DNA from: Parcubacteria group bacterium Gr01-1014_31
GTDB lineage: Bacteria; Patescibacteriota; Patescibacteriia; Buchananbacterales; GWA2-38-13
Length of the DNA: 64,000 bases
Direction of reading: 5' to 3'
Assembly: GCA_007376135.1 (NCBI GenBank)
Contig: VMFR01000003.1
Coordinates: 75,660-139,659, forward strand
The position numbers and the translations under genes are program-made. The notes beneath the pieces were generated by a model. That model searched no databases. It was not told the origin of the DNA and saw nothing but the letters and a program-made list of their open reading frames with translations. Each line of letters begins with the position of its first letter. Positions within the stretch are counted from its first letter, which is position 1. Of the stretch, positions 2,995 through 64,000 are shown piece after piece.

Positions 2995-3030
2995 ACACCC
3001 GCCAGCGATTCGCTGGCGGGTGTTCCGTTT
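2995..3030 (+). terminator. hairpin downstream of pnp
   Basis: acacccgccagcg-att-cgctggcgggtgt stem followed by tccgttt. Confidence 0.5.
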
Positions 3031-3351
3031 GGCGCGGACGGCAACGCGGCATCGTCGACAATCCGTTGGGATGAAAAGGTTTCACGGGGCGTGCGGGCGT
3101 GATGTTCCGGCGATGGAAGGTCTGACAGGAGTACCTCATGAAACCTGAAACCTGGAACCTGGAACAGAACGGACCGCGTTCGGTGCCTGCATCGAGCGAA
3201 GTTCCATCGGGGCGGGGGAGTTTAGTTATTCACATGCGTGTGGATAATTTGCGAACGCAAGACATCGCTGCCCGCCCCTTACCGCATTTGAAATTTTGTG
3301 GCGAAATATGGCTCTATCACAACAAAATAGTTCCATTTTTGCAACATTTTC

Positions 3352-3380
3352 TTGACAGTCGGGGAGTATCGTGCTACAAT
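3352..3380 (+). promoter_or_regulatory. sigma70-like promoter (TTGACA-17-TACAAT)
   Basis: TTGACA at 3352-3357, 17-nt spacer, TACAAT at 3375-3380, inside a 0.9-kb non-coding gap. Confidence 0.5.
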
Positions 3381-3386
3381 GAGTAT

Positions 3387-3767
3387 GTTGTAAATTGAAA
3401 ATCAGAAAGATTTTCCCAACTGTTGTTGGGTGAATTTTTCTCCTCTGTACTTGGCTTCCGTGTTTTTACAGTCGCCGCAAAGGAGACTGGTCTGTAGATG
3501 GCGAAGCTGACCGCCACCAGATAAAAACAAAAATAAAACATCGGCTGGATCGCGGATCAACCGCGTACCAACCAAAGCCTGGTAAAGAGGCGTTCGAGTC
3601 GGCCGAACTAAGACCCGGAGTTTCAAGTAGTGATCCGTTAGGTGGGATGAGGGCGATGAACGAGCGTTCATCATCGTCATCCCACCTACCAATCCGCTTG
3701 AAACTTCACTACAAAGGCGGATACGCTACAAAATCTTTTTTGAGGGCGACTATCCGCCTTTTCATTT
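3387..3767 (+). ncRNA. candidate non-coding RNA of about 380 nt (unclassified)
   Basis: Runs from the predicted TSS after the consensus promoter to a 10-bp-stem hairpin (aaggcggata...tatccgcctt) plus U-tract at 3714-3767. No convincing ORF; internal long imperfect inverted repeat at 3620-3700. Confidence 0.3.
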
Positions 3768-3860
3768 ACCCAAAAACGCCTCGGCGCGCAGCATTGCCAA
3801 ACTGACCCTCCTTGCCTATACTATTAATATACTGAAACCCGTTCACCCTATCCCATAGCT

Positions 3861-4235
3861 ATGGACTCCAAGGCACTCGAAGCCATCAAAGTGAAACTCC
3901 AGGAGCAGGAGCGCCAGCTCAAGGAGCGATTGGAGTGGTTCACCACGCAAGACCAGCAGAATCCGGCGGACTACCACTCACGGTTCCCTGACTACGGCAG
4001 CAAGGAGGATGAGAACGCCGCCGAAGTTTCGGCCTACTCCGACCGGCTGTCGCTTGAACACACGGTGGAGTCAGACTTGCGCGACGTGAAAACAGCGCTC
4101 GCCAACATCACCAAGGGCACGTATGGTATTTGCCGCTATTGTAAAAAGCCGATCGAAGAGAAGCGGCTGCTGATCCGGCCCACCTCTAGCTCCTGCGTGC
4201 AGTGCAAAAAGCAACTCAAGGGCGAGGCCGCGTGA
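3861..4235 (+). CDS. DksA/TraR-family C4 zinc-finger protein
   Basis: N-terminal coiled-coil-like region; C-terminal CRYC...CVQC (CxxC-x17-CxxC). Confidence 0.8.
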   Translation: MDSKALEAIKVKLQEQERQLKERLEWFTTQDQQNPADYHSRFPDYGSKEDENAAEVSAYSDRLSLEHTVESDLRDVKTALANITKGTYGICRYCKKPIEEKRLLIRPTSSSCVQCKKQLKGEAA

Positions 4236-4774: not shown

Positions 4775-6304
4775 ATGCCTGCCCGCGTGTTATCCGCCGC
4801 GCTCGTTGGACTGGACGCCGTTCCGGTTGAAGTGGAAGCCGACCTGTCGGCACAGCTGCCGGGCTTGCTCATCGTCGGGCTGCCCGATCAAGCGGTGGAA
4901 GAATCGCGCGAGCGTGTTCGCAGCGCCCTGAAGAATGCCGGCATCCCGCCGCTGCGGCAGAAGATTACCATCAATCTCGCACCCGGCGACTTGCGCAAGG
5001 AGGGTGCCGCCTACGACCTGCCCATCGCCGTTGCCATTCTCCTGGCGGCCGGTCATTTGCAACTGCGGCAGCCGTGGGCGACGCAGCTGTTCGCCGGCGA
5101 GTTGAGTCTGGATGGGAGCGTGCGGGCAATCCCGGGCGTACTGCCCATTGCCCTGCTTTCCAAGGCGCGCGGCATCACCAATTTGTATGTTCCGGAAGCC
5201 AACGTCAGCGAGGCGTGCCTGGTGCCGGGCGTTACCGTCTACGGCGTTGCCACGCTGCGCGATCTGGCGCTGCATCTGAAGGGGGAGGCCGAGATCGCCG
5301 CGCGCAGTTCCGCAGGGCTTCCCCCGCAGGCGGCGCTGGCGGAGGCCGACGTGGATTTTTCCGCCATTCAGGGGCAGGAGAGCGTCAAGCGGGCGCTGGA
5401 GATCGCGGCCGCCGGCGGCCACAACATCCTTTTGTCCGGCCCGCCGGGGGCGGGGAAGACTTTGCTCGCGCGCGCATTTTCCGGCATCCTGCCGCAGATG
5501 ACCGACGAGGAGGTGCTGGAGGTAACGCGTATCTATAGTGTCGCGGGTTTGTTGCCGCCTGGCGTGCCGCTGGTGCGCCAGCGGCCGTTCCGCAGCCCTC
5601 ACCATTCGGCCTCCGCCATCAGTCTGGTGGGCGGTGGCTCCACGCCCAAGCCCGGCGAGGTCACGTTGGCGCACCGGGGCGTGCTGTTCCTGGATGAATT
5701 TCCGGAGTTCCCGCGCGCGGCGCTGGAACACCTGCGCCAGCCGCTGGAGGACGGGGTGGTGACGGTTGCGCGCGTGGCGGCCAGTGTGCGTTTCCCGGCG
5801 CGTTTTCTGCTGGTGGCGGCGGCTAACCCCTGCCCGTGCGGGTACTTGTCCGACCCGCAGCGGCCGTGCGTCTGTTCGCCGACCCAGGTGTTGCGCTACC
5901 GCAAGCGTATCTCCGGCCCGATGCTGGACCGGATCGACCTGCACGTGGAGGTTCCGCCGGTGCAGTTCGAAAAGCTCGCCGCCCCCCAGCCGGGGGAATC
6001 CACGGCGGCCGTACGGACGCGCGTGCAGCAAGCGCGCGACCGCCAGACCGCGCGGTTTACCGCCGCCGCTTCCGGCGCGCTGACGAATGCCGAGATGGGT
6101 TTGGAGGACCTCAAGATCTTCGTGCGATTGGATGAAGCGACCGTCGCGTTCCTGCGCCAAGCCGTCCCCAAGTTGCAGCTGTCGGCCAGAGGCTACCACC
6201 GCGCGCTTAAAGTTGCGCGCACCATTGCCGACCTGGCGGGGGAGGACACTATTTCCCAGCAGCATGTCGCAGAAGCGTTGCAGTACCGACCGGCCGCAGA
6301 ATAA
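4775..6304 (+). CDS. comM: YifB/ComM-family Mg-chelatase-like AAA+ ATPase
   Basis: N-terminal Lon-protease-like segment, Walker A GPPGAGKT and a C-terminal Mg-chelatase-like region; start placed at MPARVLSAAL. Confidence 0.88.
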   Translation: MPARVLSAALVGLDAVPVEVEADLSAQLPGLLIVGLPDQAVEESRERVRSALKNAGIPPLRQKITINLAPGDLRKEGAAYDLPIAVAILLAAGHLQLRQPWATQLFAGELSLDGSVRAIPGVLPIALLSKARGITNLYVPEANVSEACLVPGVTVYGVATLRDLALHLKGEAEIAARSSAGLPPQAALAEADVDFSAIQGQESVKRALEIAAAGGHNILLSGPPGAGKTLLARAFSGILPQMTDEEVLEVTRIYSVAGLLPPGVPLVRQRPFRSPHHSASAISLVGGGSTPKPGEVTLAHRGVLFLDEFPEFPRAALEHLRQPLEDGVVTVARVAASVRFPARFLLVAAANPCPCGYLSDPQRPCVCSPTQVLRYRKRISGPMLDRIDLHVEVPPVQFEKLAAPQPGESTAAVRTRVQQARDRQTARFTAAASGALTNAEMGLEDLKIFVRLDEATVAFLRQAVPKLQLSARGYHRALKVARTIADLAGEDTISQQHVAEALQYRPAAE

Positions 6305-6501
6305 TTTTTCTGCCACCTTTCTAGGAAAGGTGGCGCCAAAGTCGCGAGCCGTCTCGAAATTTAGAAAAAAACAGACTCGCTCGGCGTAAAATCGCTATGC
6401 GCACGCGACCTTAGCACGCGATTTCCCACCGCCTAGCTCGCCTCGATTTTTTACCTAAATTTCTCCAATGCTCGCATCGTATTGTTACTAACCGTTAAAG
6501 T

Positions 6502-7188
6502 ATGGAAGAACTTAACCACACAGCTGATGAATTGTTGCGGATAAAAGATTGGGTATTACGGAACTATCACAATGACGTCTATCCGCTTTTTATAAACAGT
6601 CAAACAGTTGGCGCGGCAGATGGTGTATTTCATTTTGGAATTGTACGGAATATTATGGCGTACATAGAAACCTGTGGCGCCATACATTCAGGGTGGGCTG
6701 AGCTGGATCAGAGAGGTGATTACGATACAAAGAAAGTAGCTACTTCTGAAAAATCTATACGTTTTATTGTCGAATTCTTGTCCGTTATTGATAAGAATTA
6801 TCGTGAAAATGGTAAATTATTTTACAACATGTATAGACATGGTTCGACTCACTTACTGAGACCCCACAGGTTGAAGAGTAGGGCAACTGGTATGATATAT
6901 TCTTGGTGGTGGTATTCTGGCGATAGATGTACGATTCATGACAAGGTGGAGGGGTTTAAAAGAGACGACGGCGTTCGTGTGAGTCATTTAGAGTTAATTA
7001 AGGTACCCAACCAGAATGTTTACCTACTTCCTGTTTCATTTCCCTGCCTTTGCGCGGATGTAGAAAAAGCAGTAGGAAATTTTTATGATTCTTTGGTTGG
7101 TGCAAGGAGAAAGGGAGATTTACCCCCTGAACAGCGGCGGGCATTAACGTTTATTGCAAACGGCGTAGTAACACGGGGTGACATTTAG
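6502..7188 (+). CDS. hypothetical protein encoded in a low-GC islet
   Basis: 228-aa ORF at about 38-40% GC, well below the 63% background; no recognisable domain; 11-nt overlap with the next gene. Confidence 0.55.
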   Translation: MEELNHTADELLRIKDWVLRNYHNDVYPLFINSQTVGAADGVFHFGIVRNIMAYIETCGAIHSGWAELDQRGDYDTKKVATSEKSIRFIVEFLSVIDKNYRENGKLFYNMYRHGSTHLLRPHRLKSRATGMIYSWWWYSGDRCTIHDKVEGFKRDDGVRVSHLELIKVPNQNVYLLPVSFPCLCADVEKAVGNFYDSLVGARRKGDLPPEQRRALTFIANGVVTRGDI

Positions 7189-36266: not shown

Positions 36267-37523
36267 TCATTCCGGAATGTAGACGGTGGTTGGCGGCGAC
36301 GCGGGGATGCTGATAGTCTTGCGGTAGCCGACCCGGTCGTGCGCATTATCCGTAGTACCCCACATCGCGCCGGACGCAATGGTGGACTCGCCGTACTTAT
36401 CGTTGAGCCGGTCGGCAGCCGCCGCCAGGAGTTTTGGCTTGAGGATGTCATCAAACAGCGACTGCTGCCCGGATGTTGGCTGCAGGTCCGTCACGCTGAC
36501 GGCAAGTTGGGTGGCCGCATCGGGCAGGGGACGGGAGAACAACAGCGCGTTGGCAGCACGCAGGATATCCGGCGTCGTGAAGAGCGGTTCCGCTGCCCGC
36601 TTGCTGCCGCCCCGGCCGTGGCCGTGCTGCAGACCGCAGTAGGCAAATATCCCCCGCGCTTCCAGGTTCTGGCTGCGCAGCCGCCGGCCGGTGCGTTCGC
36701 ACAGTTTCGCGAGTATCGGCCGCAGGTAGGCGGGGTCGTCGGTGCGCTTCGGCAGGCAGTAGGAATGACCGATGGATTTCGGCGCGGCCGGCGTTGTCGC
36801 CACATCGGAAAGTTCTACGCCGTTGACGTTCGCCCATAGGTAGTACCCGGGCTTGCCTAGGCAGGCGATCAAATTGGCCACCGGGTAGCGGCGCAGGTCA
36901 TTGAGCGTGGCAATGCCCAGCCGCCACAGCCGCCAGGCGGTCTTGTGTTTGATGCCCCAGGCATCGGTGATGCGGACGCGAGAAAATATTGCCGCCACAG
37001 TATCGGGGGTGACCATCAGGACGCCGCCCTTGGGCGCCACATCGGAACCGAATTTCGCCAAAAATCGCGTGGAGCTGACGCCGACGGAGCATTGCAGCCA
37101 GTCGCCGACCTCGGTTTTGATGCGCCGTTGGATTTGGCGCGCCAGCAGCTCGGCCTGGGGGAGCTCGCGCACCCAGCCGGTCATGTCCAAAAATGCTTCA
37201 TCGATGCTGTAGGGTTCCACGCGGTCGGTATACTGCGCGAGGATGGAAAATATTTTTTCCGTCGTGCTGCGGTATTTGGATGGTTCATTTTGGACCAGGA
37301 TGATGCCGGGGTAGATCTTTTTGGCGTCACTGATGCGCATGCCGGTTTTGACCCCGACCTTCTTGGCCTCCATGGAGGACGCGATGATGCAGCCGTTGCC
37401 GTTCTTGGTTTTTGGCAGGTACGCGCACACGCCCAGCGGTTTGCCGCGCAGGAAAGGATTGGCCTGCTGCTCCACAGAGGCAAAGTAGCTATTCATATCG
37501 ATATGCAGTATCACTTTTTGCAT
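36267..37523 (-). CDS. dinB: DNA polymerase IV (Y-family)
   Basis: MQKVILHIDMNSYFASVEQ N-terminus and conserved palm/finger motifs; C-terminal extension of about 60 aa. Confidence 0.9.
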   Translation of the reverse strand: MQKVILHIDMNSYFASVEQQANPFLRGKPLGVCAYLPKTKNGNGCIIASSMEAKKVGVKTGMRISDAKKIYPGIILVQNEPSKYRSTTEKIFSILAQYTDRVEPYSIDEAFLDMTGWVRELPQAELLARQIQRRIKTEVGDWLQCSVGVSSTRFLAKFGSDVAPKGGVLMVTPDTVAAIFSRVRITDAWGIKHKTAWRLWRLGIATLNDLRRYPVANLIACLGKPGYYLWANVNGVELSDVATTPAAPKSIGHSYCLPKRTDDPAYLRPILAKLCERTGRRLRSQNLEARGIFAYCGLQHGHGRGGSKRAAEPLFTTPDILRAANALLFSRPLPDAATQLAVSVTDLQPTSGQQSLFDDILKPKLLAAAADRLNDKYGESTIASGAMWGTTDNAHDRVGYRKTISIPASPPTTVYIPE

Positions 37524-37617
37524 ATCATGGAGAGTTCATTTCTACACTTTTTTGGAAAGGGCGGGTTCGAGGGGGTATGGGCCACCTCACGTATAAAGTT
37601 ATGTCTAGTGCGAGAAT

Positions 37618-38430
37618 TTAATTAGGATTGGGCTTCACGTGACTTTTGATAAGAATTTTTACTACTGCTTCAAGTTTTAGTGTCTCTACATCTTGATTAA
37701 ATTGACCATGGGGAATCTTTGGGATTACGGCATTGGGAATATTGCCGTGCGCTGTTGGGTTACCCCACTTCAAAATTATTTTTATGAAATCATCTTCGGT
37801 GATAGTCCCCCGCGCTTCTGGCGAGAGGGCTCTATACATGTTCGCTGCTTTTGTTCTCCCGCCACGGTTTAGTGATGTAATAATTTCGATAATACGTATA
37901 TAGCCTAAGAACCTCCAGCCAAGTTCGTTATATAAATCCGTCGCCGATCTCCACAGATAAAAGACATCCTCGTATTTTTTGTATATGTCGAAGGACGGTA
38001 AGTTTTCTACCAATTTACAATTTGTTCGATGGAAAATGATACCACCCGAAACGCTGGATTGTCCGCCCATGAGCAAAGGCCTCTTCCGTCTATCAAGATT
38101 TAACGTAAAAGTGGCATCGTCATAGACTTGGAAAAAATCGTAGTTTGATAAAAAGAATGGAACTTGGAATATCCCCGCCAAATAAGCAGTAATCTTATTA
38201 AGCTTTTCTAATGAGTGATGATAAGCGAGGTAGGGGTCCGTATCCTGAATGCGAATAATTAATGAGATTATATTAGTGCCATCTCTCTCGAAGTGATTAT
38301 CTAATGTCATTACAGAATTTTCATTAATCCATAGAATGTAATCGTCAGAAGATAAGACTTTTTTGAGTCTTATCCCTGACGCTATAGAGGTGTACTCTAC
38401 GTAAAATTTTTTAGTATTTCCTTCTTCCAT
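37618..38430 (-). CDS. hypothetical protein encoded in a low-GC islet
   Basis: About 36% GC against the 63% background. The ORF extends to 38514, but composition breaks at about 38440, so the start is more likely at MEEGNTKK. No recognisable domain. Confidence 0.5.
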   Translation of the reverse strand: MEEGNTKKFYVEYTSIASGIRLKKVLSSDDYILWINENSVMTLDNHFERDGTNIISLIIRIQDTDPYLAYHHSLEKLNKITAYLAGIFQVPFFLSNYDFFQVYDDATFTLNLDRRKRPLLMGGQSSVSGGIIFHRTNCKLVENLPSFDIYKKYEDVFYLWRSATDLYNELGWRFLGYIRIIEIITSLNRGGRTKAANMYRALSPEARGTITEDDFIKIILKWGNPTAHGNIPNAVIPKIPHGQFNQDVETLKLEAVVKILIKSHVKPNPN

Positions 38431-38840
38431 ACTTTTGGTACTAAGATGTAACCCAATGCGCCCATTGGAGAAATTTAGGCAGCATTGCGCCGTGAGGAGG
38501 AGCGTTCCCGCCACGGGAAATTTCGCGACTGTCTGAGGGCGCCCCCGGGGCGGCCGAGTTAGCGAAATTAGCCGACGAGGAACGGCTCAATGCTCTAAAT
38601 TTGGACACGGGGCGCGACTTTGGCGGTACCTTCGCGCCTACAGCACCTTAACTTGGTTCATCTTCGTCGCTTTTGCGGTGGCCGGGTTCTTGGGGCTGGT
38701 CGGCATCACTACACTGGTGGCATCCGCAGGTCGGTAGATTTTCAGACGGAAAGTTTGTCGTGCCGAAGCGCCTGGCGGATGCCGGGCGCTTTTGGATGTG
38801 TCTCAACATCCTTGGTCTCTCTGCGGGAAGGAGAATTATT

Positions 38841-38870
38841 CCCCCTTACGAAGGAGGGGTGAGGGGAGGT
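38841..38870 (+). repeat. GC-rich hairpin repeat, copy 1 (cccccttacgaaggaggggtgaggggaggt)
   Basis: About 90% identical to copy 3 and inverted relative to copy 2; brackets the DUF559 gene. Confidence 0.6.
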
Positions 38871-39226
38871 GACGGGAGATGGCGGACGATACTATCCAGC
38901 ACGGCATCGCGGTTGTGGTAGATGTCCGTGTTTGTGAAACGAAGCACGGTCATGCCCAGCGACTGGAGATACGCTTGTCGTCGAACGTCGTAGGTGACCG
39001 CGGATGGCGTGACGTGTGAGTCGCCATCAATTTCAATTGCTACGTGCGTCCGCGGGCAGTAGAAATCAACGATGAAAGGGCCGATGCTGACCTGACGACG
39101 GAATTTATAGCCGTTGAGATGTTTGCCGCGCAGGTAATACCACAGTAGAAGTTCGGCGAATGGCATACGGTTTCGCAGTCCGCGCCGCCGTGTTCGTTGT
39201 TCGGTTTGATTGAAAATTTTGGTCAT
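38846..39226 (-). CDS. DUF559 (Vsr/MutH-like endonuclease fold) domain protein
   Basis: FRRQVSIGPFIVDFYC...VAIEIDGDSH...VLRFTN motif series typical of DUF559. Confidence 0.75.
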   Translation of the reverse strand: MTKIFNQTEQRTRRRGLRNRMPFAELLLWYYLRGKHLNGYKFRRQVSIGPFIVDFYCPRTHVAIEIDGDSHVTPSAVTYDVRRQAYLQSLGMTVLRFTNTDIYHNRDAVLDSIVRHLPSPPLTPPS

Positions 39227-39275
39227 CGTTTTACGTCTTTTAACCCCCAGGATACAACGTATCCACCCCCTCTAG

Positions 39276-39296
39276 CTCCCCCTTCGTAAGGGGGAG
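39276..39296 (+). repeat. GC-rich hairpin repeat, copy 2 (inverted palindromic form: ctccccctt-cgt-aagggggag)
   Basis: Shares a core with copies 1 and 3. Confidence 0.5.
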
Positions 39297-39338
39297 AATA
39301 TTTCGCAAGGGGAGGAACTTTTTATATCGTCAGTTCTT

Positions 39339-39370
39339 CCCCTCCTTACGAAGGAGGGGGTAGGGGAGGT
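39339..39370 (+). repeat. GC-rich hairpin repeat, copy 3 (cccctccttacgaaggagggggtaggggaggt)
   Basis: Contains the cccctcctt-acg-aaggagggg hairpin; ends at the stop of the adjacent minus-strand ORF. Confidence 0.6.
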
Positions 39371-39666
39371 TATCCGGTGGCATACCATTCGCTCAACCGC
39401 CACGATAGCCGGCGGGTGGAAAAGGCCAGTTTGAAATAGTTGGCGGCGTCGGAAACGTTGAAGTAGTAGATGATATCCTCGCCGTCGCGTTCGCGGTGCA
39501 CCAGGTTGAGTTTCTCGACCTGATATTTTTTTCCGCGCCAGCGAAAAACGAGCGGCATGACTTTGTTGCCGGCAATACGGGGTTTTACGACCGGCCGGTC
39601 AACACAGGCCAAGACCGGAGAAAAGCTGGCCAGGACCTCGATGGGCTCATCAATTACTTCTTGCAT
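39370..39666 (-). CDS. hypothetical protein
   Basis: 98-aa ORF, no recognisable domain. Confidence 0.35.
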   Translation of the reverse strand: MQEVIDEPIEVLASFSPVLACVDRPVVKPRIAGNKVMPLVFRWRGKKYQVEKLNLVHRERDGEDIIYYFNVSDAANYFKLAFSTRRLSWRLSEWYATG

Positions 39667-59021: not shown

Positions 59022-59061
59022 AGTTCATCTCCACTATACACCGCAGCGTCAAGCCAAACAA

Positions 59062-59090
59062 AAAACAGGCAGCGGAGCCTGTTTTTGAAG
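59062..59090 (-). terminator. intrinsic terminator (paralogous to the one at 60722)
   Basis: caggctccgctgcctg hairpin plus ttttttg on the minus strand; shares the gccaaacaaaaaacaggca motif. Confidence 0.55.
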
Positions 59091-59175
59091 TCTGGCGGGC
59101 TGGACGGATTCCACTGCGCTTGAACCCGTCGTCGTCCGCCTGGGGCGGACTCCTCCCCCATAGAGCTTCCGCTCA

Positions 59176-60600
59176 TCATATCTCAAAGTTTTGACCGGCT
59201 GCGGGGATGGTTATATTGAGTGCCGGAAAATGTTGCTGGAGAACTGCCTTGAACGCGGTCGCCTGGGGCAGCTCCGTATGCACAAGGAAAACCCGCTGTA
59301 GATCCTTCATTTGGGAAACATACGCCAGGAGTCCCCGTTGGTCAGCGTGGGCGCTTAATTCATCGACCGTGACGACGCGCGCGTGGACGTCGTACATCCG
59401 GTTGTACACGCGCACAGGCGTGATGCCGTCCTGCAATTTTCTTCCCAAGGTATGCTCCGCCTGATAGCCGGTGAGCATGATGATCGCATTTGGGTCGCTG
59501 ACCCCGTACTCAAGATGGTTCAGGATGCGCCCGCCTTCGGCCATGCCGGAGGAAGCGATGACCATGTACGGACCGTGCGCCGCGGCCAACGCTCGTGATT
59601 CTTCGACCGTCTGGAGCGAGCGCAGATTGCGGAAGGAAAACGGCGACTCATTGCGGCTGATGAAATCGGCCCAAGTTTCCTGGTCAAAGTCATCGCGGTG
59701 GCTGGCAAATACGGCCGTGATGTCGCTCGCTAGCGGGCTGTCGAGGTAGATCGGTAGGGCCGGGATTTCACCCTGATCGTAGAGCTTGTGCAAAATGTAG
59801 ATGAGCTCCTGGGTCCGCCCCAGCGCGAAGGCCGGGATGATGATCTTCCGCTTATTGTGTACGGCATCGCGAATGATCTCTTTCAAGCGGTCCGCGATCT
59901 CCGCTATCGGGCGGTGATTTTTATTGCCGTAGGTGCACTCGATGATAAGCGTTTCGACCGGTTCGGCGATGATTTCCGGTTCATGGAGGAGTGGCACATT
60001 GGTATTCCCCAGGTCACCGGTATACGCCACGGTTGTGGTGCCGCCGGGTTGGTCGCATTGAACGACCGTTACCGCCGAGCCAAGAATGTGCCCGGCATCA
60101 TAAAATTTGAATCGGCAGCGCGGGTTGAGCGGTTGCCAGTTTTGTGCCGCATGGGCATAGGGGAGCGGCGCAAAGTGCGTGGCGGCTTCTTCAGCGTCCT
60201 CGGCGGAATATAACGGCTGCAGTATCTTTTCGTCGGCTGCCGCGTGTTTTTGCATGCGTAGGTAATCCTGCTGCTGAATTTTTGCCGAATCAAGCATGAT
60301 GAGGCGCGCAATCGCCGCGGTCGCGGGCGTGGCAAAAATTTTATGGCGATAGCCGTTCTTGACCAGGACCGGCAGCATACCGCAATGATCCGCGTGCGCA
60401 TGGGAAAGGATCGTCGCGGAAATATCACTGGCGCTGAAGGGGAGTATCCGGTTCAGGGCGTCCGCCTCATGGCGTTTCCCCTGGTGCAACCCGCAGTCCA
60501 GCAAAAGGCGGAATCCCTCGGATTCGATGAGGTGCTTTGAACCAGTGATGTTTTGCGCGGCGCCAAAAAAAGTGATCTGCATACCAGCAGTGTACGGCAT
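59176..60600 (-). CDS. beta-CASP family MBL-fold ribonuclease (RNase J / CPSF-like)
   Basis: HAHADHCG metallo-beta-lactamase motif, beta-CASP and RNA-specificity C-terminal regions; the start may be at MQITFFGAA (60582). Confidence 0.8.
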   Translation of the reverse strand: MPYTAGMQITFFGAAQNITGSKHLIESEGFRLLLDCGLHQGKRHEADALNRILPFSASDISATILSHAHADHCGMLPVLVKNGYRHKIFATPATAAIARLIMLDSAKIQQQDYLRMQKHAAADEKILQPLYSAEDAEEAATHFAPLPYAHAAQNWQPLNPRCRFKFYDAGHILGSAVTVVQCDQPGGTTTVAYTGDLGNTNVPLLHEPEIIAEPVETLIIECTYGNKNHRPIAEIADRLKEIIRDAVHNKRKIIIPAFALGRTQELIYILHKLYDQGEIPALPIYLDSPLASDITAVFASHRDDFDQETWADFISRNESPFSFRNLRSLQTVEESRALAAAHGPYMVIASSGMAEGGRILNHLEYGVSDPNAIIMLTGYQAEHTLGRKLQDGITPVRVYNRMYDVHARVVTVDELSAHADQRGLLAYVSQMKDLQRVFLVHTELPQATAFKAVLQQHFPALNITIPAAGQNFEI

Positions 60601-60721
60601 CCGCGCGAATTCGGAAACTCAAAAAACCTTTACGATGGATGCCGCTTGACTTGCGGAGTGGGGGACGACCTCGGTTCGGGCATAGGCCTTTCTACGTTAC
60701 GCCCTGCAGAGACCGGCCAAA

Positions 60722-60752
60722 CAAAAAACAGGCAACGGGTGCCTGGTTTTGG
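60722..60752 (-). terminator. intrinsic terminator
   Basis: caggcacccgttgcctg hairpin plus ttttttg on the minus strand. Confidence 0.5.
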
Positions 60753-60826
60753 TGGGGTGGGGAGGAGGTGAGAGAATTAAGTTTTTTAGTTTAATATTGC
60801 AGATTAGGCTTCACCGAAATCCTCCC

Positions 60827-61606
60827 TTAGAATGGGCATTTTGTGAACCAGTGCGGAATATCTTTAGTACTACTAAGATAGTAACCAATTACTTTTTTGC
60901 TGATAATAGCCGGGTTATCTTTTTTAACAGCAAAAACTAACTCATTCCATAAATATTTTTCAGTTGGCTGCCAATTTTTTGGGTAGAAGTCTTTTGATTT
61001 AAAGTGTATAAGATTATCTCTAGTGTTTTTTAACCAAATGTATTTTTGCCATATTTCCTTAGTTTTTATACTTTCTACATTATATATTTCAGAAAGAATG
61101 GCCCCCAATTTTTCATCGAGTGTTACGTTCCTTTCAATGAAATGCTTATCATGAATTTCAGTTCCCTCCCTTCTCTCTTTTGAATATTTATAATCATCGG
61201 GCAATGATTGATTCGCGAAATGTTCAATTGCAGAATATGCGAAAATATAGCCTTGCATTAATTTTTCTATGGCATCGAATAGTTTTCCAGTTTTTTCTAT
61301 GGGTACAGTTAAATGTGTACTTTCCCCGCTGAACGTATAGGGATTATGTGCGTTGAGTAAATTTTCACCTTCTTGCCATGATTTATAAGATACATTTAAC
61401 ATCATCGCGGTTATACTTGGTATAGGAAAACTAATAATTATCGACTCAAGGCCGTACCCCATGTTGCTAAGTCCGGCCACCACTACTGTTTCCTCATCTT
61501 TGTCCCCCCTGCGTTCTTCGGGGAATAATTTTTTTGGAAGCTTGCCAAAGTTGTATGTTCTCCAATCAAACTGCTCAGAGTCTTCTACTATATTTGTGCT
61601 ATCCAT
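60827..61606 (-). CDS. hypothetical protein encoded in a low-GC islet
   Basis: About 36% GC; no recognisable domain (an RDNLIH Rx4H motif near the C-terminus is not significant). Confidence 0.5.
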   Translation of the reverse strand: MDSTNIVEDSEQFDWRTYNFGKLPKKLFPEERRGDKDEETVVVAGLSNMGYGLESIIISFPIPSITAMMLNVSYKSWQEGENLLNAHNPYTFSGESTHLTVPIEKTGKLFDAIEKLMQGYIFAYSAIEHFANQSLPDDYKYSKERREGTEIHDKHFIERNVTLDEKLGAILSEIYNVESIKTKEIWQKYIWLKNTRDNLIHFKSKDFYPKNWQPTEKYLWNELVFAVKKDNPAIISKKVIGYYLSSTKDIPHWFTKCPF

Positions 61607-61754
61607 ATATTCTTTGACAACTCATTATGATGTTTAAGTCAGCGTTTGTTAGTTATCTGCGATCACGTCTTCGCCAGTGAAATCTAACCAGTTAGTCAAC
61701 CCTTTATTGTAATGCTGTACTGTAATAGATTACTCCTCACATGAGCTAATCGCA

Positions 61755-61821
61755 AACCAAAAAACCCGTTGCCACCACTCCAGCGGACTGGGGCATTAGC
61801 AACGGATACGGAATTTCGTGG
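61755..61821 (+). repeat. 67-bp direct repeat, left copy
   Basis: About 85% identical to 63551-63617; contains the ccgttgc...gcaacgg inverted repeat; also acts as a minus-strand terminator (hairpin plus ttttttgg). Confidence 0.65.
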
Positions 61822-61970
61822 AATTAGGGTCGAAGAAAGGGTCTAATTTCTGGGCTCTTGGGCGCCGTTTAGATGTCTTAGAATATCTTCTAATTGTGTT
61901 TGTTAATTAGTATAGAAAAGAAACCTTATTTTAAGCCAAATTACCCCCCTCTTCTAATTTCTTCTAATTC

Positions 61971-63410
61971 CTACTGAATCTCGTAAAAGGTTGAGGCGCC
62001 AGATCCCCGCATGCTCACAAGTCCCAATTCATCAAGCTTATTTAAATCATTTGAGATAGTCGCTCTTGATACCTTAGGAAAAAGTTGTTGGCATTCCTTA
62101 GCTGTCATTTTTAATCTATCCTGCAACGTGTTCCAAATAAATAATTGTCGCCGGTTTAGTTCTAGAAATTTCCTTCCCGGCAAGACAACCTTGAAATTGT
62201 TAGCCATGTTTTTAAAGATTGGTTCCGGTAATCCTCGTTCGTGCATTCTGGCCAACACAATATCAATACCGCGACCGTATTCCTCCAAATAGTCCATGTC
62301 TTTCAATATTGAGGCGATAACCTCATTGCGACTAAATTGCGCTTGCTTAATGTTTTCGACGCTGACGCCAGGAGGTAAGTTTCCTGGGTTAGAAATTTCA
62401 ATTCTATTGGAAAAGATGTTCACCTGGGTATAAGTTTCCGTAATCATATAATCTCTGTGAATAATGGCGTTCGCTACAATTTCTCTTAGGGCTTCTTCGG
62501 GGTATTCATATTCCTCTACTCGTTTAGTGCCTACAATTTTTGCGGCAACGGGTATATTCCTCAAAATAAATTTTTGTATTTCATCAATTTGTTGATCCAA
62601 TGTACCTGCAATATCTAGTTTATCGCCGATAGGGCTCGCAGAGTTAATACCGTTATATTTAACACACCGGATCATAAAACGATAAAACGCCCCGGTCTTT
62701 TGGGGCAGTTCTCTTGAAAAAATAAGAAAACCGCCAACCGTAGGGACATCCCGACCCCTTATTTGAACAACGATGCCGAGATTTTTCATTACAGCATAAG
62801 TAGGCCTACCATCAACTTTTCTATCTGTTTTAGAGGCACTTGTTGCTAAGAATTTTTTGATTTTTTCTCTCGAGAGCATCTTGATGTTCGTGTCTAAGGC
62901 TGGCTCCTTATCGTATTTATAAAGTGCAGAGTTGCGGATAAATTGTTTGAGCTCCTCAAAATTGATAGATCGAGAAGTATTACCCACCCTAATGCATGCT
63001 CCATGGGGCAATCCGATTTGCTTGTTATAACAGGGCTTTCTCTCGTCAGGGACGTGTCGTATGATAACAGCTAAAATATTTTTTCCTTCATAAGGAAAAA
63101 CTTTTAATTCCGGTATTTCTGCATTGACCATAACGTCACGAAAGTAGGCAACAATTTTTTCCTGAAGCTGGGCAATGTCCCTAAGACCAACTATAGAAAT
63201 TTCACGAATTCCATCTTTCCTCACTAATTCCTTAATCCCAAAAACAATTAGACCTCCTTCGGGGTTGTGTGAAAAAGAGGAAATTGCACGCCAAATATCT
63301 CCAGGAAGACCTCCTCGAGCATCTTTGAATTCTGTGTGAGAGTTTTCGCTCCCACTGCTTCGTGCAAAATTGATCCTCTTTTTAATTTCAGCTTCAGGCA
63401 TTGTAGCCAT
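61971..63410 (-). CDS. AlbA_2 (Schlafen-like) plus HATPase_c_4 plus C-terminal wHTH protein (putative DNA-binding, RecG-like ATP-binding-protein family)
   Basis: N-terminal AlbA_2-like (GGLIVFGI...), central HATPase_c_4-like (IVANAIIHRDY...), C-terminal HTH (TAKECQQLFPKVSRATISNDLNKLDELGLV); about 38% GC. Confidence 0.75.
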   Translation of the reverse strand: MATMPEAEIKKRINFARSSGSENSHTEFKDARGGLPGDIWRAISSFSHNPEGGLIVFGIKELVRKDGIREISIVGLRDIAQLQEKIVAYFRDVMVNAEIPELKVFPYEGKNILAVIIRHVPDERKPCYNKQIGLPHGACIRVGNTSRSINFEELKQFIRNSALYKYDKEPALDTNIKMLSREKIKKFLATSASKTDRKVDGRPTYAVMKNLGIVVQIRGRDVPTVGGFLIFSRELPQKTGAFYRFMIRCVKYNGINSASPIGDKLDIAGTLDQQIDEIQKFILRNIPVAAKIVGTKRVEEYEYPEEALREIVANAIIHRDYMITETYTQVNIFSNRIEISNPGNLPPGVSVENIKQAQFSRNEVIASILKDMDYLEEYGRGIDIVLARMHERGLPEPIFKNMANNFKVVLPGRKFLELNRRQLFIWNTLQDRLKMTAKECQQLFPKVSRATISNDLNKLDELGLVSMRGSGASTFYEIQ

Positions 63411-63521
63411 ACACTGTTATATACTATAACAAAATTGTAGTTATTGCCCTAGGGATAGGATGCTGACAGCAAACGGGCAGGACCTCTCCTCCGCGTTATG
63501 CTCCGGAGGGGCAGGCGGGAT

Positions 63522-63555
63522 TCACCCCTGTGGGTTCGAATCCCTCGCTCAACCA
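63522..63555 (+). other. tRNA 3'-end-like fragment (GGTTCGAATCC T-arm), no complete tRNA
   Basis: cctgtGGGTTCGAATCCCtcgctcaacca; no matching acceptor or anticodon arms upstream. Confidence 0.3.
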
Positions 63556-63617
63556 AAAATCCGTTGCTCAGACCCCCGGCGGTCTGGGGCATTGGCAACG
63601 GATACGGATTTTTCGGA
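63551..63617 (+). repeat. 67-bp direct repeat, right copy
   Basis: See the left copy; lies immediately after the tRNA-like fragment. Confidence 0.65.
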
Positions 63618-63646
63618 ACGATTTTCAAATTCCTAGGTAAACCCTC

Positions 63647-63940
63647 CTACTGCCATCTGAACAAGAGGGGAAAGATGAAGGTGATGAACGCGGTCCACGC
63701 CGCGTAGACGGGGAGGTATCCACCCAGCCAGTTGATCATTCGTTGTTTTGCGTCTCCTTTTCGGATGTCTTGCAGGAGCGCGGAGAGGAGCCCGATCGTA
63801 TTCAGGAAGATGAGAACGTTGGCGCCGAAAACCGCGATCCGGTTTGGCGTGAATCCGTAGCTGCTCAAACGGAAGAGAATTGCCGACAGTGCGACCGCAT
63901 CAATGATCAGGCCGGTCGCCAGCAAACCCAAGGCGACCAT
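63647..63940 (-). CDS. hypothetical membrane protein
   Basis: 97 aa with 3 TM helices. Confidence 0.4.
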   Translation of the reverse strand: MVALGLLATGLIIDAVALSAILFRLSSYGFTPNRIAVFGANVLIFLNTIGLLSALLQDIRKGDAKQRMINWLGGYLPVYAAWTAFITFIFPLLFRWQ

Positions 63941-64000
63941 AGTAGAGGAATTCCATCGGCGTTCGGCTTTCCCTTCTGTTAGGCTGTAGACACTGATGGC

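What the first reader, a model, noticed from the sequence alone, without database searches (positions are those of the whole stretch)
60722..63617. Low-GC accessory islet: orphan gene plus an AlbA_2/HATPase_c_4 DNA-binding protein flanked by 67-bp direct repeats and a tRNA 3'-end-like fragment
Two adjacent minus-strand genes (60827-61606 and 61971-63410) sit at about 36-38% GC in a 63% GC background. The second is bracketed by about 85%-identical 67-bp direct repeats at 61755-61821 and 63551-63617. Each repeat holds a ccgttgc/gcaacgg hairpin followed by a T-run, so each also works as a minus-strand terminator.

Immediately left of the right repeat is GGTTCGAATCC, a canonical tRNA T-arm sequence with no full tRNA around it. 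This looks like a tRNA-derived att remnant. Together these signatures suggest a site-specific insertion of a cargo gene of the Schlafen/AlbA_2 ATP-binding type, which is frequently found in defence/mobile islands. No integrase remains.
Basis: partly seen in the sequence, partly recalled or inferred. Interest (0 to 1): 0.55.

Follow-up and report, generated by a model that had tools for sequence, protein, structure and literature searches.

The report
Gene cassette stack behind tRNA-Asp
The AT-rich patch is real. It is two separately imported genes (a Schlafen-type RNase/ATPase and an uncharacterised enzyme-like protein) within a longer stack of swapped-in gene cassettes behind a tRNA-Asp gene of a Parcubacteria (CPR) bacterium, and the "direct repeats" are copies of that tRNA's terminator marking cassette boundaries.

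Summary
Two minus-strand genes at 35% and 40% GC sit in a 61% GC background. An 80%-identical hairpin+T-run repeat lies on each side of the second gene, and GGTTCGAATCC sits beside the right copy.

- A near-identical metagenome contig extends 6.6 kb past the window end. It shows an intact tRNA-Asp 5.4 kb beyond the right repeat and a third copy of the repeat.
- In a related genome (L077) the same repeat directly follows tRNA-Asp, so it is a tRNA-Asp terminator variant. It is not a duplication made by inserting one gene.
- In four related Parcubacteria genomes the DNA downstream of tRNA-Asp is a different stack of small cassettes. Every boundary ends in ...CCCG, the tRNA discriminator position. 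Left-side and right-side boundary sequences combine freely.
- The AlbA_2 gene and the 259-aa gene are two adjacent cassettes of this stack.
- GGTTCGAATCC is one arm of a hairpin in a recurrent tRNA-Asp-derived junction element, not a T-loop.
- No integrase lies within about 40 kb.

The AlbA_2 protein is a typical "Schlatpase-HTH" protein with an intact E-x4-E-x-K nuclease motif. The "orphan" belongs to a family with 648 cluster representatives and an invariant R-x4-H pair.

The closest analogue is a tRNA-anchored island built by successive integrations. This is a new variant of moderate interest.

The parts
59027..59095 (-). Terminator F2c (R1 type: CCAGACTTCAAAAACAGGC..GCCTGTTTTTTGTTTGG). It follows the last tRNA-Asp 3' fragment and marks the distal end of the array.
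   Evidence: 93.5% identical over 62 nt to the tRNA-Asp 3' end plus terminator at L001 1675-1736. Flagged by the terminator scan. Folds at -20.3 kcal/mol, z -4.5.
59096..59140 (-). X3: a tRNA-Asp 3' fragment (..GGGTTCAAGCGCAGTGGAATCCGTCCAGCCCG) ending at the discriminator G. The ENA assembly carries an extra 34-nt hairpin (H2) here.
   Evidence: The 9-mer TCCAGCCCG is at 59096 on the reverse strand. Alignment with tRNA-Asp and with X1/X2. Indel against L001.
59176..60600 (-). Beta-CASP/metallo-beta-lactamase RNase gene (474 aa). It is the backbone neighbour of tRNA-Asp and the last gene-bearing unit of the array.
   Evidence: Pfam Beta-Casp 3e-36, RMMBL, Lactamase_B. 85% aa identity and syntenic with tRNA-Asp in L002.
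60691..60753 (-). Terminator F2b (R1 type), the boundary between the 259-aa cassette and the beta-CASP unit. It is preceded at 60751-60778 by a degenerate cassette-end motif, TTCTCTCACCTCCTCCCCACCCCACCA.
   Evidence: 92.5% identical over 40 nt to the terminator that follows tRNA-Asp (L001 1700-1739). Terminator scan hit at 60745-60729. Junction table.
60827..61606 (-). 259-aa protein of an uncharacterised family with a likely enzyme signature (R-x4-H, HEPN-like). It forms its own cassette, 60754-61808.
   Evidence: No Pfam hit. phrog_17113 at 4.5e-15. 648 cluster representatives. Invariant D14, R16, E128, N132, K166, R196, H201. AlphaFold2 pLDDT 92.4 with no Foldseek match. Homologues sit in unrelated contexts.
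61750..61808 (-). It is the first element of the 259-aa cassette and terminates the AlbA_2 transcript.
   Evidence: 89.5% identical to the element directly following tRNA-Asp in L077.
61809..61850 (-). M-like 3' end of the AlbA_2 cassette (CTTTCTTCGACCCTAATTCCACGAAATTCCG), ending at the boundary ..CCG|TATCC.
   Evidence: Similarity with the HEAT_2 cassette end (L001 4150-4182) and with motif M in L002, L077 and L079.
61971..63410 (-). Schlafen(AlbA_2)-GHKL ATPase(HATPase_c_4)-wHTH protein ('Schlatpase-HTH', pSlfn HisKinase-HTH class), 479 aa. It forms its own cassette, 61809-63473.
   Evidence: Pfam. E22, E27, K29 (E-x4-E-x-K) invariant in 28 homologues. PADLOC pAgo profile hit over the SLFN+GHKL part. 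Literature.
63458..63473 (-). R3 remnant, TTTGCTGTCAGCATCC. This is the first half of the terminator that follows tRNA-Asp in L002 and L077, truncated where the low-GC DNA begins.
   Evidence: Identical 16-mer after ..CCCG in L002 8568 and at L077 junctions.
63474..63550 (-). Junction element X2.
   Evidence: 90% identical over 50 nt to X3 in L001. Fold. Homologous elements after tRNA-Asp in L002, L077 and L079.
63551..63604 (-). It terminates the cupin-membrane gene. With X2 it forms a gene-less 131-nt unit.
   Evidence: Boundary ..AAAATCCG|TATCCGTTGC at 63605|63604.
63647..64000 (-). 3' end of a 481-aa cupin + membrane-domain gene that runs off the window.
   Evidence: The frame is open to the window end. 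Full gene at L001 5509-6954 with Cupin_2/AraC_binding.

Best explanation
The window comes from Parcubacteria group bacterium Gr01-1014_31, a CPR/Patescibacteria bacterium. The low-GC islet is two neighbouring single-gene cassettes: the AlbA_2 cassette (window 61809-63473) and the 259-aa cassette (60754-61808). They sit in an array of at least 7 units that fills the 8.3 kb between an intact tRNA-Asp(GTC), 5.4 kb past the right repeat, and the beta-CASP RNase gene.

How the array was most likely built (inferred): repeated site-specific integration at the 3' end of tRNA-Asp. Each incoming unit starts with its own copy of a tRNA-Asp downstream terminator. Each unit ends with a pseudo-tRNA-Asp 3' end, either element X or motif M, finishing in CCCG. 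Older units are pushed away from the tRNA. No recombinase is encoded nearby, so it must act in trans or be lost.

What the repeats do now (inferred from hairpin plus U-run): they act as intrinsic terminators that insulate each cassette.

Cargo function (inferred from homology):
- The AlbA_2 protein is a Schlafen nuclease-GHKL ATPase-wHTH protein. It is probably an ATP-controlled tRNA/RNA nuclease used in phage defence or abortive infection (about 0.5).
- The 259-aa protein is an enzyme of unknown fold relationship with an R-x4-H pair, possibly a HEPN-like RNase (about 0.35).
- The two genes are not a functional pair.
For: Shown:
1. L001/L068 (ENA contig) is identical to window 59106-64000 and extends 6.6 kb further. 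It carries tRNA-Asp at L001 1618-1694.
2. The repeat has a third copy after the HEAT_2 gene (L001 4169-4235, 88-93% identical). In L077 it directly follows the tRNA-Asp discriminator (94%, 89% and 88% to the three copies).
3. In the closest genome, L002 (beta-CASP 85% aa identity, tRNA-Asp 98.7% nt identity), the order rplT - tRNA-Asp - beta-CASP is conserved. The tRNA-to-beta-CASP interval is 1.43 kb (one AI-2E transporter gene) against 8.3 kb here, with no shared cargo.
4. Junction table across four genomes (ours, L002, L077, L079). Every boundary ends in CCCG|. Left types (tRNA/X or M) and right types (R1-R5) occur in most combinations. The intact tRNA is followed by R1 here, R3 in L002, R2 in L077 and a GIY-YIG gene in L079.
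5. The tRNA-Asp 3' 13-mer CCCGTCCAGCCCG occurs 4 times on one strand within 4.4 kb of L077 (expected 0.0002). The 9-mer occurs 3 times in our locus, always co-oriented with the tRNA.
6. The same ParE/Phd cassette (81% nt identity) is in ours, L077 and L079 behind different junctions. The gene-less R3+X unit is 96% identical between L002 (position 1) and L077 (position 6).
7. These repeat families are absent from the other 59 kb of the window.
8. Cassette GC is heterogeneous: 0.37, 0.40, 0.48, 0.52, 0.58.
9. AlbA_2 and 259-aa homologues sit in unrelated contexts elsewhere and are AT-richer than their hosts.
10. Catalytic E22/E27/K29 are invariant.

Published work:
- Slfn-HisKinase-HTH is 19.2% of prokaryotic Schlafens, and Slfn nucleases cleave tRNA in defence (PMC13056530).
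Against: - No integrase or recombinase domain was found in window 24-64 kb, in the 7 kb beyond it, or in the arrays of L002, L077 and L079.
- The identity shared at M-type junctions is only CCCG, too short for a classical att core.
- No excised circle or precise empty site for the two-gene islet was observed. The only other sample with this locus is 100% identical.
- Under strict tRNA-proximal insertion, the AT-rich (apparently recent) cassettes would be among the oldest. This requires insertion at internal junctions or slow amelioration.
- The beta-CASP gene, a conserved neighbour, is itself bracketed by junction elements.
- HisKinase-type Schlafen fusions tested in E. coli gave no defence phenotype.
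- The 259-aa model has no Foldseek match, and only 1 of 70 family members touches a HEPN Pfam model, at E=0.008.
Confidence: 0.6

Rival explanations
1. Homologous recombination, not a site-specific recombinase, builds and shuffles the array. DNA taken up from related cells is patched in using the conserved tRNA-Asp gene and the 50-180-nt terminator/X linkers as homology anchors. Gene conversion keeps the linkers similar.
For: - No recombinase lies anywhere near the four arrays.
- Linkers are 80-96% identical within and between genomes and are long enough for recombination.
- The ParE/Phd cassette body starts just after the terminator T-run rather than at CCCG.
- The window and the ENA assembly differ by a clean 34-nt hairpin indel in X3.
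Against: - Left and right junction types switch exactly at CCCG with unrelated sequence on either side.
- Several clean partial-tRNA repeats are only 13-15 nt long, too short for efficient homologous exchange.
- All copies are co-oriented with the tRNA.
Confidence: 0.2
2. F1, F2 and X are themselves small mobile or self-propagating non-coding elements (REP/MITE-like, tRNA-derived) that inserted between pre-existing genes. The genes were acquired independently.
For: - Gene-less units exist: F1b+X2 (131 nt), R1+long X (242 nt), R3+X in L002 and L077.
- X has inverted T-arm-like ends.
- All elements abut a fixed CCCG, reminiscent of target-specific insertion.
Against: - No copy in the other 59 kb of the window.
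- Every copy lies in the tRNA-Asp interval and in one orientation.
- It does not explain why cargo differs completely between genomes whose flanks are 85-98% identical.
Confidence: 0.1
3. A single site-specific insertion of the AlbA_2 gene duplicated a 67-bp att site. GGTTCGAATCC is the remnant of a plus-strand tRNA that served as the target.
For: - The two repeats do flank the AlbA_2 gene.
- The T-arm 13-mer GGGTTCGAATCCC is identical to that of the local tRNA-Asp.
Against: - A third and a fourth copy exist at other gene ends and directly after tRNA-Asp in L077.
- The 259-aa gene is equally AT-rich but lies outside the bracket.
- The left boundaries of the two repeats differ: cupin-gene tail versus M-like motif.
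- The 11-mer is one arm of hairpin H1 in a minus-strand element that recurs three times.
- No plus-strand tRNA or fragment is detected by ARAGORN or Rfam.
Confidence: 0.05

Closest known systems
tRNA-anchored genomic islands built by successive integrations (Prochlorococcus tycheposon islands; bioRxiv 10.1101/2020.12.28.424599)
   Same: - An intact tRNA at one end.
- Partial tRNA repeats scattered through the island.
- New elements push older ones further in.
- Cargo differs between close relatives.
- A streamlined host genome without classical mobile elements.
   Different: - Here the units are tiny (0.13-2.8 kb), mostly single genes or gene-less.
- None carries an integrase or replication module.
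- Each starts with a terminator of the tRNA.
- Many end in a non-tRNA motif (M) or in a tRNA fragment with inserted hairpins (X).
- The host is a CPR bacterium.
Integron cassette arrays / CALINs (clusters of attC sites lacking an integrase)
   Same: - Co-oriented, mostly single-gene cassettes including toxin-antitoxin genes.
- A hairpin-forming element at each boundary.
- Array content varies between relatives.
- No integrase in cis (as in CALINs).
   Different: - The hairpin arms read CCGTTGC...GCAACGG (GTT before AAC), the reverse of attC's RYYYAAC...GTTRRRY.
- The hairpins carry U-runs like terminators.
- The array is anchored on a tRNA 3' end rather than on attI next to intI.
- Cassettes carry their own promoters (for example TTGACA-17-TAATAT before the ParE/Phd pair).
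Integrase-less elements flanked by att sites that accumulate beside integrative elements (CIMEs, accretion model; from my own knowledge, not checked in a paper here)
   Same: Units bounded by att-like repeats but lacking recombination genes, stacked in tandem at one chromosomal site.
   Different: No autonomous partner element is visible. The units are much smaller.
Prokaryotic Schlafen 'Schlatpase' proteins: pSlfn HisKinase-HTH class (PMC13056530) and the SLFN-GHKL module of SLFN-pAgo (bioRxiv 10.64898/2026.05.29.728809)
   Same: - SLFN_AlbA_2 + HATPase_c_4 + C-terminal HTH.
- Invariant E-x4-E-x-K.
- About 475 aa, the commonest architecture.
- Located in a variable region with toxin-antitoxin genes.
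   Different: - No activity or defence phenotype has been shown for this stand-alone class; two HisKinase fusions tested in E. coli were negative.
- This copy is from a CPR bacterium and shares at most 65% identity with any other sequence.
HEPN-domain RNases (R-x4-6-H)
   Same: An invariant R196-x4-H201 in a helical C-terminal half. The gene sits in an accessory, defence-like neighbourhood. A PHROG family match.
   Different: - No Pfam HEPN model matches the protein.
- There is no Foldseek match to any solved or viral predicted structure.
- Additional invariant D14, R16, E128, N132 and K166 suggest a different or composite active site.

Membership tests
Prokaryotic Schlafen / Schlatpase-HTH | SLFN_AlbA_2 domain (PF04326) | tested here: met
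   E=1e-9, 39.4 bits against a 25.3-bit cut-off, residues 22-149.
Prokaryotic Schlafen / Schlatpase-HTH | Catalytic E-x4-(E/D)-x-K motif | tested here: met
   E22-NSHT-E27-F-K29. All three residues are invariant in 28 homologues. Motif definition from PMC13056530.
Prokaryotic Schlafen / Schlatpase-HTH | GHKL-type ATPase domain (PF13749 HATPase_c_4) fused C-terminally | tested here: met
   E=2e-24, residues 328-410. E310, N314, H318, R319 are invariant. Matches the SLFN+GHKL part of the PADLOC pAgo profile.
Prokaryotic Schlafen / Schlatpase-HTH | C-terminal helix-turn-helix | tested here: inconclusive
   HTH_DeoR E=4.4e-4 (20.4 bits, below the 21-bit cut-off). ArsR/SdpR-type NCBIfam hits at 4e-4 to 2e-3.
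Prokaryotic Schlafen / Schlatpase-HTH | RNA (tRNA) cleavage and phage defence | not testable with these tools
   Needs biochemistry or heterologous expression. HisKinase-type fusions tested in the literature were negative.
tRNA-targeting integrative island | Intact tRNA gene at one end | tested here: met
   tRNA-Asp(GTC) at L001 1618-1694, window-equivalent about 68907-68983. ARAGORN, and Rfam at 67.7 bits.
tRNA-targeting integrative island | Direct repeat(s) of the tRNA 3' end at the far end or at internal junctions | tested here: met
   TCCAGCCCG 3 times in L068 and 5 times in L077, all co-oriented. The window copy is at 59096, and X2 has one mismatch.
tRNA-targeting integrative island | Integrase gene inside the element, usually next to the tRNA | tested here: not met
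   No recombinase Pfam family among the called genes of L001/L068, L078, L200 and L079, nor among the L077 and L002 array ORFs scanned.
tRNA-targeting integrative island | Relatives with a shorter or empty site | tested here: met
   L002 has 1.43 kb between tRNA-Asp and beta-CASP against 8.3 kb here, with no shared cargo. This is at island level only. No exact empty site for the two-gene islet was found.
Integron / CALIN | attC sites with R'' RYYYAAC ... R' GTTRRRY and a cassette boundary at G|TT | tested here: not met
   Read directly from the sequence: arms are CCGTTGC...GCAACGG on both strands and boundaries are at CCCG|.
Integron / CALIN | intI integrase next to the array (integron only) | tested here: not met
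   None in the annotated neighbourhoods.
Intrinsic (rho-independent) terminator | GC-rich hairpin followed by a U-run, just downstream of a co-oriented stop codon | tested here: met
   - F1c: -25.9 kcal/mol, 150 nt after the AlbA_2 stop.
- F1b: -29.1 kcal/mol, 43 nt after the cupin stop.
- F1a: -39.7 kcal/mol.
- F2b and F2c were flagged by the scan.
Termination activity itself was not tested.
HEPN RNase (259-aa protein) | R-x4-6-H motif | tested here: met
   R196 and H201 are invariant in 70 family members.
HEPN RNase (259-aa protein) | Match to a HEPN family model or HEPN fold | tested here: not met
   - No Pfam hit for the protein.
- 1 of 70 members hits HEPN_RiboL-PSP at E=0.008.
- No PDB profile hit.
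- No Foldseek hit at E<0.001 in PDB or BFVD, despite pLDDT 92.

The most novel reading that the evidence does not exclude
This Parcubacteria lineage runs an integron-like cassette system that has not been described. A trans-encoded (or novel, unrecognisable) recombinase captures promoter-bearing single-gene cassettes at the 3' end of tRNA-Asp. The tRNA end would serve as the attI equivalent. The pseudo-tRNA ends (X, M) plus the following hairpin would serve as the attC equivalent. The result is a rapidly turning-over stack of defence-type genes in genomes otherwise thought to lack mobile-element machinery.
Probability: 0.2. Interest if true: 0.75.

Novelty: new variant of a known kind. Interest (0 to 1): 0.45.

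Why it matters
CPR/Patescibacteria have tiny genomes, and how they acquire and exchange accessory genes is poorly understood.

This locus shows a concrete, repeatable architecture in four related genomes. The architecture is a tRNA-Asp-anchored stack of very small cassettes: toxin-antitoxin, Schlafen nuclease, NYN, GIY-YIG, Bro-N, DUF4238 and unknowns. Boundaries are exact, junction modules reassort, and no recombinase is present in cis.

If a dedicated enzyme is found, it would be a new cassette-capture system. Even if not, the junction motifs give a simple way to find variable or defence gene pools in CPR metagenomes. They also explain why assemblies break at this locus.

The analysis also places a stand-alone Schlatpase-HTH protein and a large uncharacterised R-x4-H family in a defence-like context, which nominates both for testing.

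Tried and rejected
- tRNA/tmRNA detection in the window: ARAGORN and Rfam at E<=10 found nothing. I briefly considered that the 250-nt stretch after tRNA-Asp (L001 1737-2007) was a truncated tmRNA. Rfam and ARAGORN do not support this, and the real tmRNA lies upstream in the relatives.
- attC/integron reading of the hairpins: rejected on core-site order and boundary position.
- Exact-protein look-up of the 479-aa ORF: failed because public gene calls start 3 codons later, giving 476 aa.
- Second sample (Logan SRR8863434): 100% identical, so no strain variation.
- Viral collections: the 20-mer tRNA-Asp end gave 0 hits. The 15-mer gave more than 120 apparently random hits and was not pursued. 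There were no AlbA_2 relatives in viral contigs.
- A strict motif-M pattern finds only L079 and nothing in the window at up to 3 mismatches, so M copies here are degenerate.
- Single-sequence AlphaFold of the 259-aa protein was useless (pLDDT 32). The alignment-based model was good but matched nothing.
- The conserved 200-aa protein just upstream of tRNA-Asp was checked as a possible hidden recombinase. It has no Pfam, PHROG or PDB match.
- Repeated tRNA-Asp ends were looked for in Staskawiczbacteria loci that also pair tRNA-Asp with beta-CASP. None was found, so the array is lineage-specific.
- No covariation could be scored in the F1 hairpin because the copies are too similar.

Full report
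**1. Checking the observation**

The window holds two minus-strand ORFs at the stated coordinates: 60827-61606 (259 aa) and 61971-63410 (479 aa).
- Their GC is 35.0% and 40.2%, with GC3 of 0.33 and 0.37.
- The rest of the window is 61.3% GC, and the neighbouring genes have GC3 of 0.69-0.75.
- The 479-aa protein has SLFN_AlbA_2 (1e-9), HATPase_c_4 (2e-24) and a weak C-terminal HTH.

The two repeats at 61755-61821 and 63551-63617 are real.
- They are 80% identical with gaps and 77% without.
- They are the longest non-coding repeat pair in the window.
- They contain the CCGTTGC...GCAACGG hairpin, which occurs 3 times against 0.01 expected.
- On the minus strand each folds (-25.9 and -29.1 kcal/mol) and is followed by a U-run.

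GGTTCGAATCC occurs once, at 63533-63543. ARAGORN finds no tRNA in the window, and Rfam finds none even at E<=10. So the description is accurate, apart from small numerical differences and the word "orphan".

**2. What lies beyond the window**

An exact-protein look-up of the flanking beta-CASP RNase returned ENA contig k139_318532 (L001/L068). It is identical to window 59106-64000 and continues 6.6 kb past the window's right end. The source organism is Parcubacteria group bacterium Gr01-1014_31.

In coding-strand order the extension carries:
- infC-rpmI-rplT and a 200-aa protein;
- an intact tRNA-Asp(GTC) (L001 1618-1694);
- a HEAT-repeat gene;
- a Phd/ParE toxin-antitoxin pair;
- a cupin-membrane gene, whose 3' end is window 63647-64000;
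- the AlbA_2 gene, the 259-aa gene and the beta-CASP gene.

I call this family F1.

A second terminator family, F2, follows three things:
- the tRNA-Asp;
- the 259-aa gene (window 60691-60753);
- the beta-CASP gene (window 59027-59095). This copy is preceded by the tRNA-Asp 3' end, GTCCAGCCCGCCA.

A third recurrent element, X, appears three times. One copy is at window 63474-63550, and that is where GGTTCGAATCC lies.

**3. Relatives**

- **L002.** A genome scan with the beta-CASP protein showed the lineage is Patescibacteria. It gave one close relative, L002, at 85% aa identity. In L002 the order rplT - tRNA-Asp - beta-CASP is conserved. The tRNA-to-beta-CASP interval is 1.43 kb with one AI-2E transporter gene, against 8.3 kb here. 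Nothing in the interval is shared.
- **L077.** A metagenome scan with the F1 hairpin pattern returned a single contig. It is a third relative in which the F1 element starts immediately after the tRNA-Asp discriminator base.
- **L079.** A fourth relative was reached through the 200-aa anchor protein.

**4. Junction analysis**

I aligned all boundaries (plus). Every unit downstream of tRNA-Asp ends in ...CCCG, the position of the tRNA discriminator.

The left side of each boundary is one of two types:
- **tRNA-Asp-like.** This is either a clean 13-15-nt copy or element X. X is a T-arm-derived hairpin H1 (GGGATTC..GAATCCC), an inserted hairpin H2, then TCCAGCCCG.
- **Motif M.** Consensus GTTCTCACATCCTCCACGACGCCCCG.

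The right side is one of several terminators, or a gene:
- R1 = F2;
- R2 = F1;
- R3 = TTTGCTGTCAGCATCC...;
- R4 = TTTTCAAAATCCGGCC...;
- R5 = a gene directly (GIY-YIG).

Left and right types occur in most combinations. The intact tRNA is followed by R1 here, R3 in L002, R2 in L077 and a GIY-YIG gene in L079.

The tRNA-Asp 3' 13-mer occurs four times on one strand in 4.4 kb of L077 (expected 0.0002). The 9-mer occurs three times in our locus. All copies are co-oriented with the tRNA. These repeat families are absent from the other 59 kb of the window.

Cargo differs between genomes.
- Here: HEAT_2; a small reverse ORF; ParE/Phd + cupin-membrane; AlbA_2; the 259-aa gene.
- L077: Bro-N + DUF4238; a 490-aa protein; GIY-YIG; ParE/Phd.
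- L079: GIY-YIG; NYN; ParE/Phd.

The ParE/Phd cassette is shared (81% nt identity) but sits behind different junctions. The gene-less R3+X unit is 96% identical at position 1 in L002 and position 6 in L077.

**5. Consequences for the finding**

The AlbA_2 gene and the 259-aa gene are two separate units.
- **AlbA_2 unit, window 63473 down to 61809.** It begins with a 16-nt remnant of the R3 terminator, right after X2's CCTGCCCG. It ends in an M-like motif, ...AATTCCG.
- **259-aa unit, window 61808 down to about 60754.** It ends in a degenerate M / pseudo-acceptor, CCCCACCCCACCA, followed by F2b.

The two repeats therefore do mark unit boundaries. But they are copies of a tRNA-Asp terminator carried at the head of different units, not the two halves of one insertion.

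GGTTCGAATCC is the complement of the 5' arm of hairpin H1 (window 63517-63544). It is tRNA-Asp-derived in the sense that the 13-mer GGGTTCGAATCCC equals the tRNA-Asp T-arm. It is not the T-loop of a decayed plus-strand tRNA.

**6. Mechanism (inferred)**

The pattern has four features: an intact tRNA, co-oriented partial tRNA repeats, exact boundaries at the end of the tRNA, and array content that differs between close relatives. This is the signature of successive site-specific integrations at a tRNA 3' end, with newer units pushing older ones away. The same has been described for Prochlorococcus islands (bioRxiv 10.1101/2020.12.28.424599).

Several things differ here.
- Units are very small.
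- No integrase or replication gene was found in window 24-64 kb, in the extension, or in the three relatives' arrays.
- M-type ends carry almost no tRNA identity.
- X has odd hairpin insertions.

The hairpins are not attC sites: the core order is reversed, boundaries are at CCCG, and U-runs are present.

**7. The cargo**

*AlbA_2 protein*
- It has more than 500 homologues of about 475 aa, mostly in Patescibacteria. The best shares 65% identity.
- Homologues lie in unrelated contexts. One sits in a low-GC insertion inside the ribosomal-protein operon.
- They are always AT-richer than their hosts.
- E22, E27 and K29, the Schlafen E-x4-E-x-K catalytic motif, are invariant. So are the GHKL-type residues E310 and N314.
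- This is the Slfn-HisKinase-HTH class, 19.2% of prokaryotic Schlafens (PMC13056530). It is also the "Schlatpase" module with a C-terminal HTH (bioRxiv 10.64898/2026.05.29.728809).
[quoted passage not shown] This is not shown for the stand-alone class, and the two HisKinase fusions tested in E. coli were negative.

*259-aa protein*
- It is not an orphan. It has 648 cluster representatives at E<=1e-3 and a phrog_17113 hit.
- D14, R16, E128, N132, K166, R196 and H201 are invariant.
- R196-x4-H201 fits the HEPN motif. However, no HEPN model or fold matches: only 1 of 70 family members touches a HEPN Pfam model, at E=0.008, and there is no PDB or Foldseek hit despite a pLDDT-92 model.

*The pair*
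- The two genes are never neighbours elsewhere. They are separated by a terminator and 365 nt. I treat them as independent.

**8. Novelty and verdict**

The islet itself is an ordinary pair of accessory genes of known or uncharacterised families. The informative result is the architecture around it: a tRNA-Asp-anchored, integrase-less stack of small cassettes with reassorting junction modules, seen in four related CPR genomes.

This is a new variant of a known kind, the tRNA-anchored island built by tandem accretion. Interest is moderate (0.45). The most novel reading that remains open is an integron-like, trans-acting cassette-capture system (probability about 0.2).

Noticed in passing
window 59101-59105 versus L001 11496-11539: The NCBI-derived window and the ENA assembly of the same population are identical over 59106-64000. 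They differ by a clean 34-nt indel. The ENA copy of element X3 carries hairpin H2 (CGCCTGCCCCTCCGAAGCCTTACGCGGAGGAGGG). The window copy lacks it, leaving a plain tRNA-Asp 3' fragment.
   Followed up: partly
L001 11605-11627 (end of ENA contig k139_318532): The contig ends in Illumina adapter sequence AGATCGGAAGAGCACACGTCTGA. Three ENA contigs of this genome break at or near repeat elements (window about 59.0 kb and about 40 kb).
   Followed up: no
L001 994-1617 (upstream of tRNA-Asp; conserved in L079 10580-11203): A roughly 620-nt non-coding stretch between the conserved 200-aa gene and tRNA-Asp. It contains three tandem imperfect palindromic units, GTCAYYCCC..hairpin..GAATCCAGWAAC (about L001 1075-1205). 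Function unknown.
   Followed up: no
L001 1737-2007; L077 (reverse strand) 3150-2983 and 1360-1225: A long form of element X (180-200 nt) with a conserved core GGGATTCGAACCCG..AAAGGGGTCGGGGAAA..GTTTCCCCGTGGCGGA.. ending in a tRNA-Asp 3' end. It is followed by its own terminator. It has no Rfam match and could be a small structured RNA.
   Followed up: partly
window 37001-39500: A second lower-GC patch (48-53%). It has a 30-nt repeat, CCCCCTTACGAAGGAGGGG.., at 38841 and 39341, and a DUF559/MTES_1575 gene nearby. A similar small palindrome, CCCCCTTCGTAAGGGGGAG, lies between the Phd and ParE genes (L001 about 5200). Other dips are at 3001-4000 and 6001-7000.
   Followed up: no
L072 6001-9200: The closest homologue of the AlbA_2 protein (65% identity) sits in a low-GC (31-36%) three-gene insertion inside the ribosomal-protein operon, between rplE and rpsN. 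It is accompanied by an NTP_transf_2 protein.
   Followed up: partly
L073 5626-5720: Another AlbA_2 homologue lies 280 nt from an unusually long (95-nt) tRNA-Thr call. This may be another tRNA-linked insertion.
   Followed up: no
L002 4099-4486, L077 8248-8640, L079 8002-8392: The tmRNA genes of the three relatives encode a long 22-residue tag, ANSLISKVK[T/M/A]AFARLSLVPAVA. smpB-tmRNA-infC-rpmI-rplT synteny precedes tRNA-Asp.
   Followed up: no
L011 2353-2429, L023 8674-8750, L028 9397-9473: In Staskawiczbacteria, a tRNA-Asp/tRNA-Met/tRNA-Met cluster lies directly upstream of the beta-CASP RNase gene, in the opposite orientation. So the tRNA-Asp/beta-CASP adjacency is older than the cassette array.
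   Followed up: partly
L001 5486-5508 (window-equivalent about 65093-65115): A truncated cassette-end motif, GGTTCTCACCTCCTCGACAACCT, runs straight into the ATG of the cupin-membrane gene. This suggests the ParE/Phd and cupin units were fused by a deletion of their junction.
   Followed up: no
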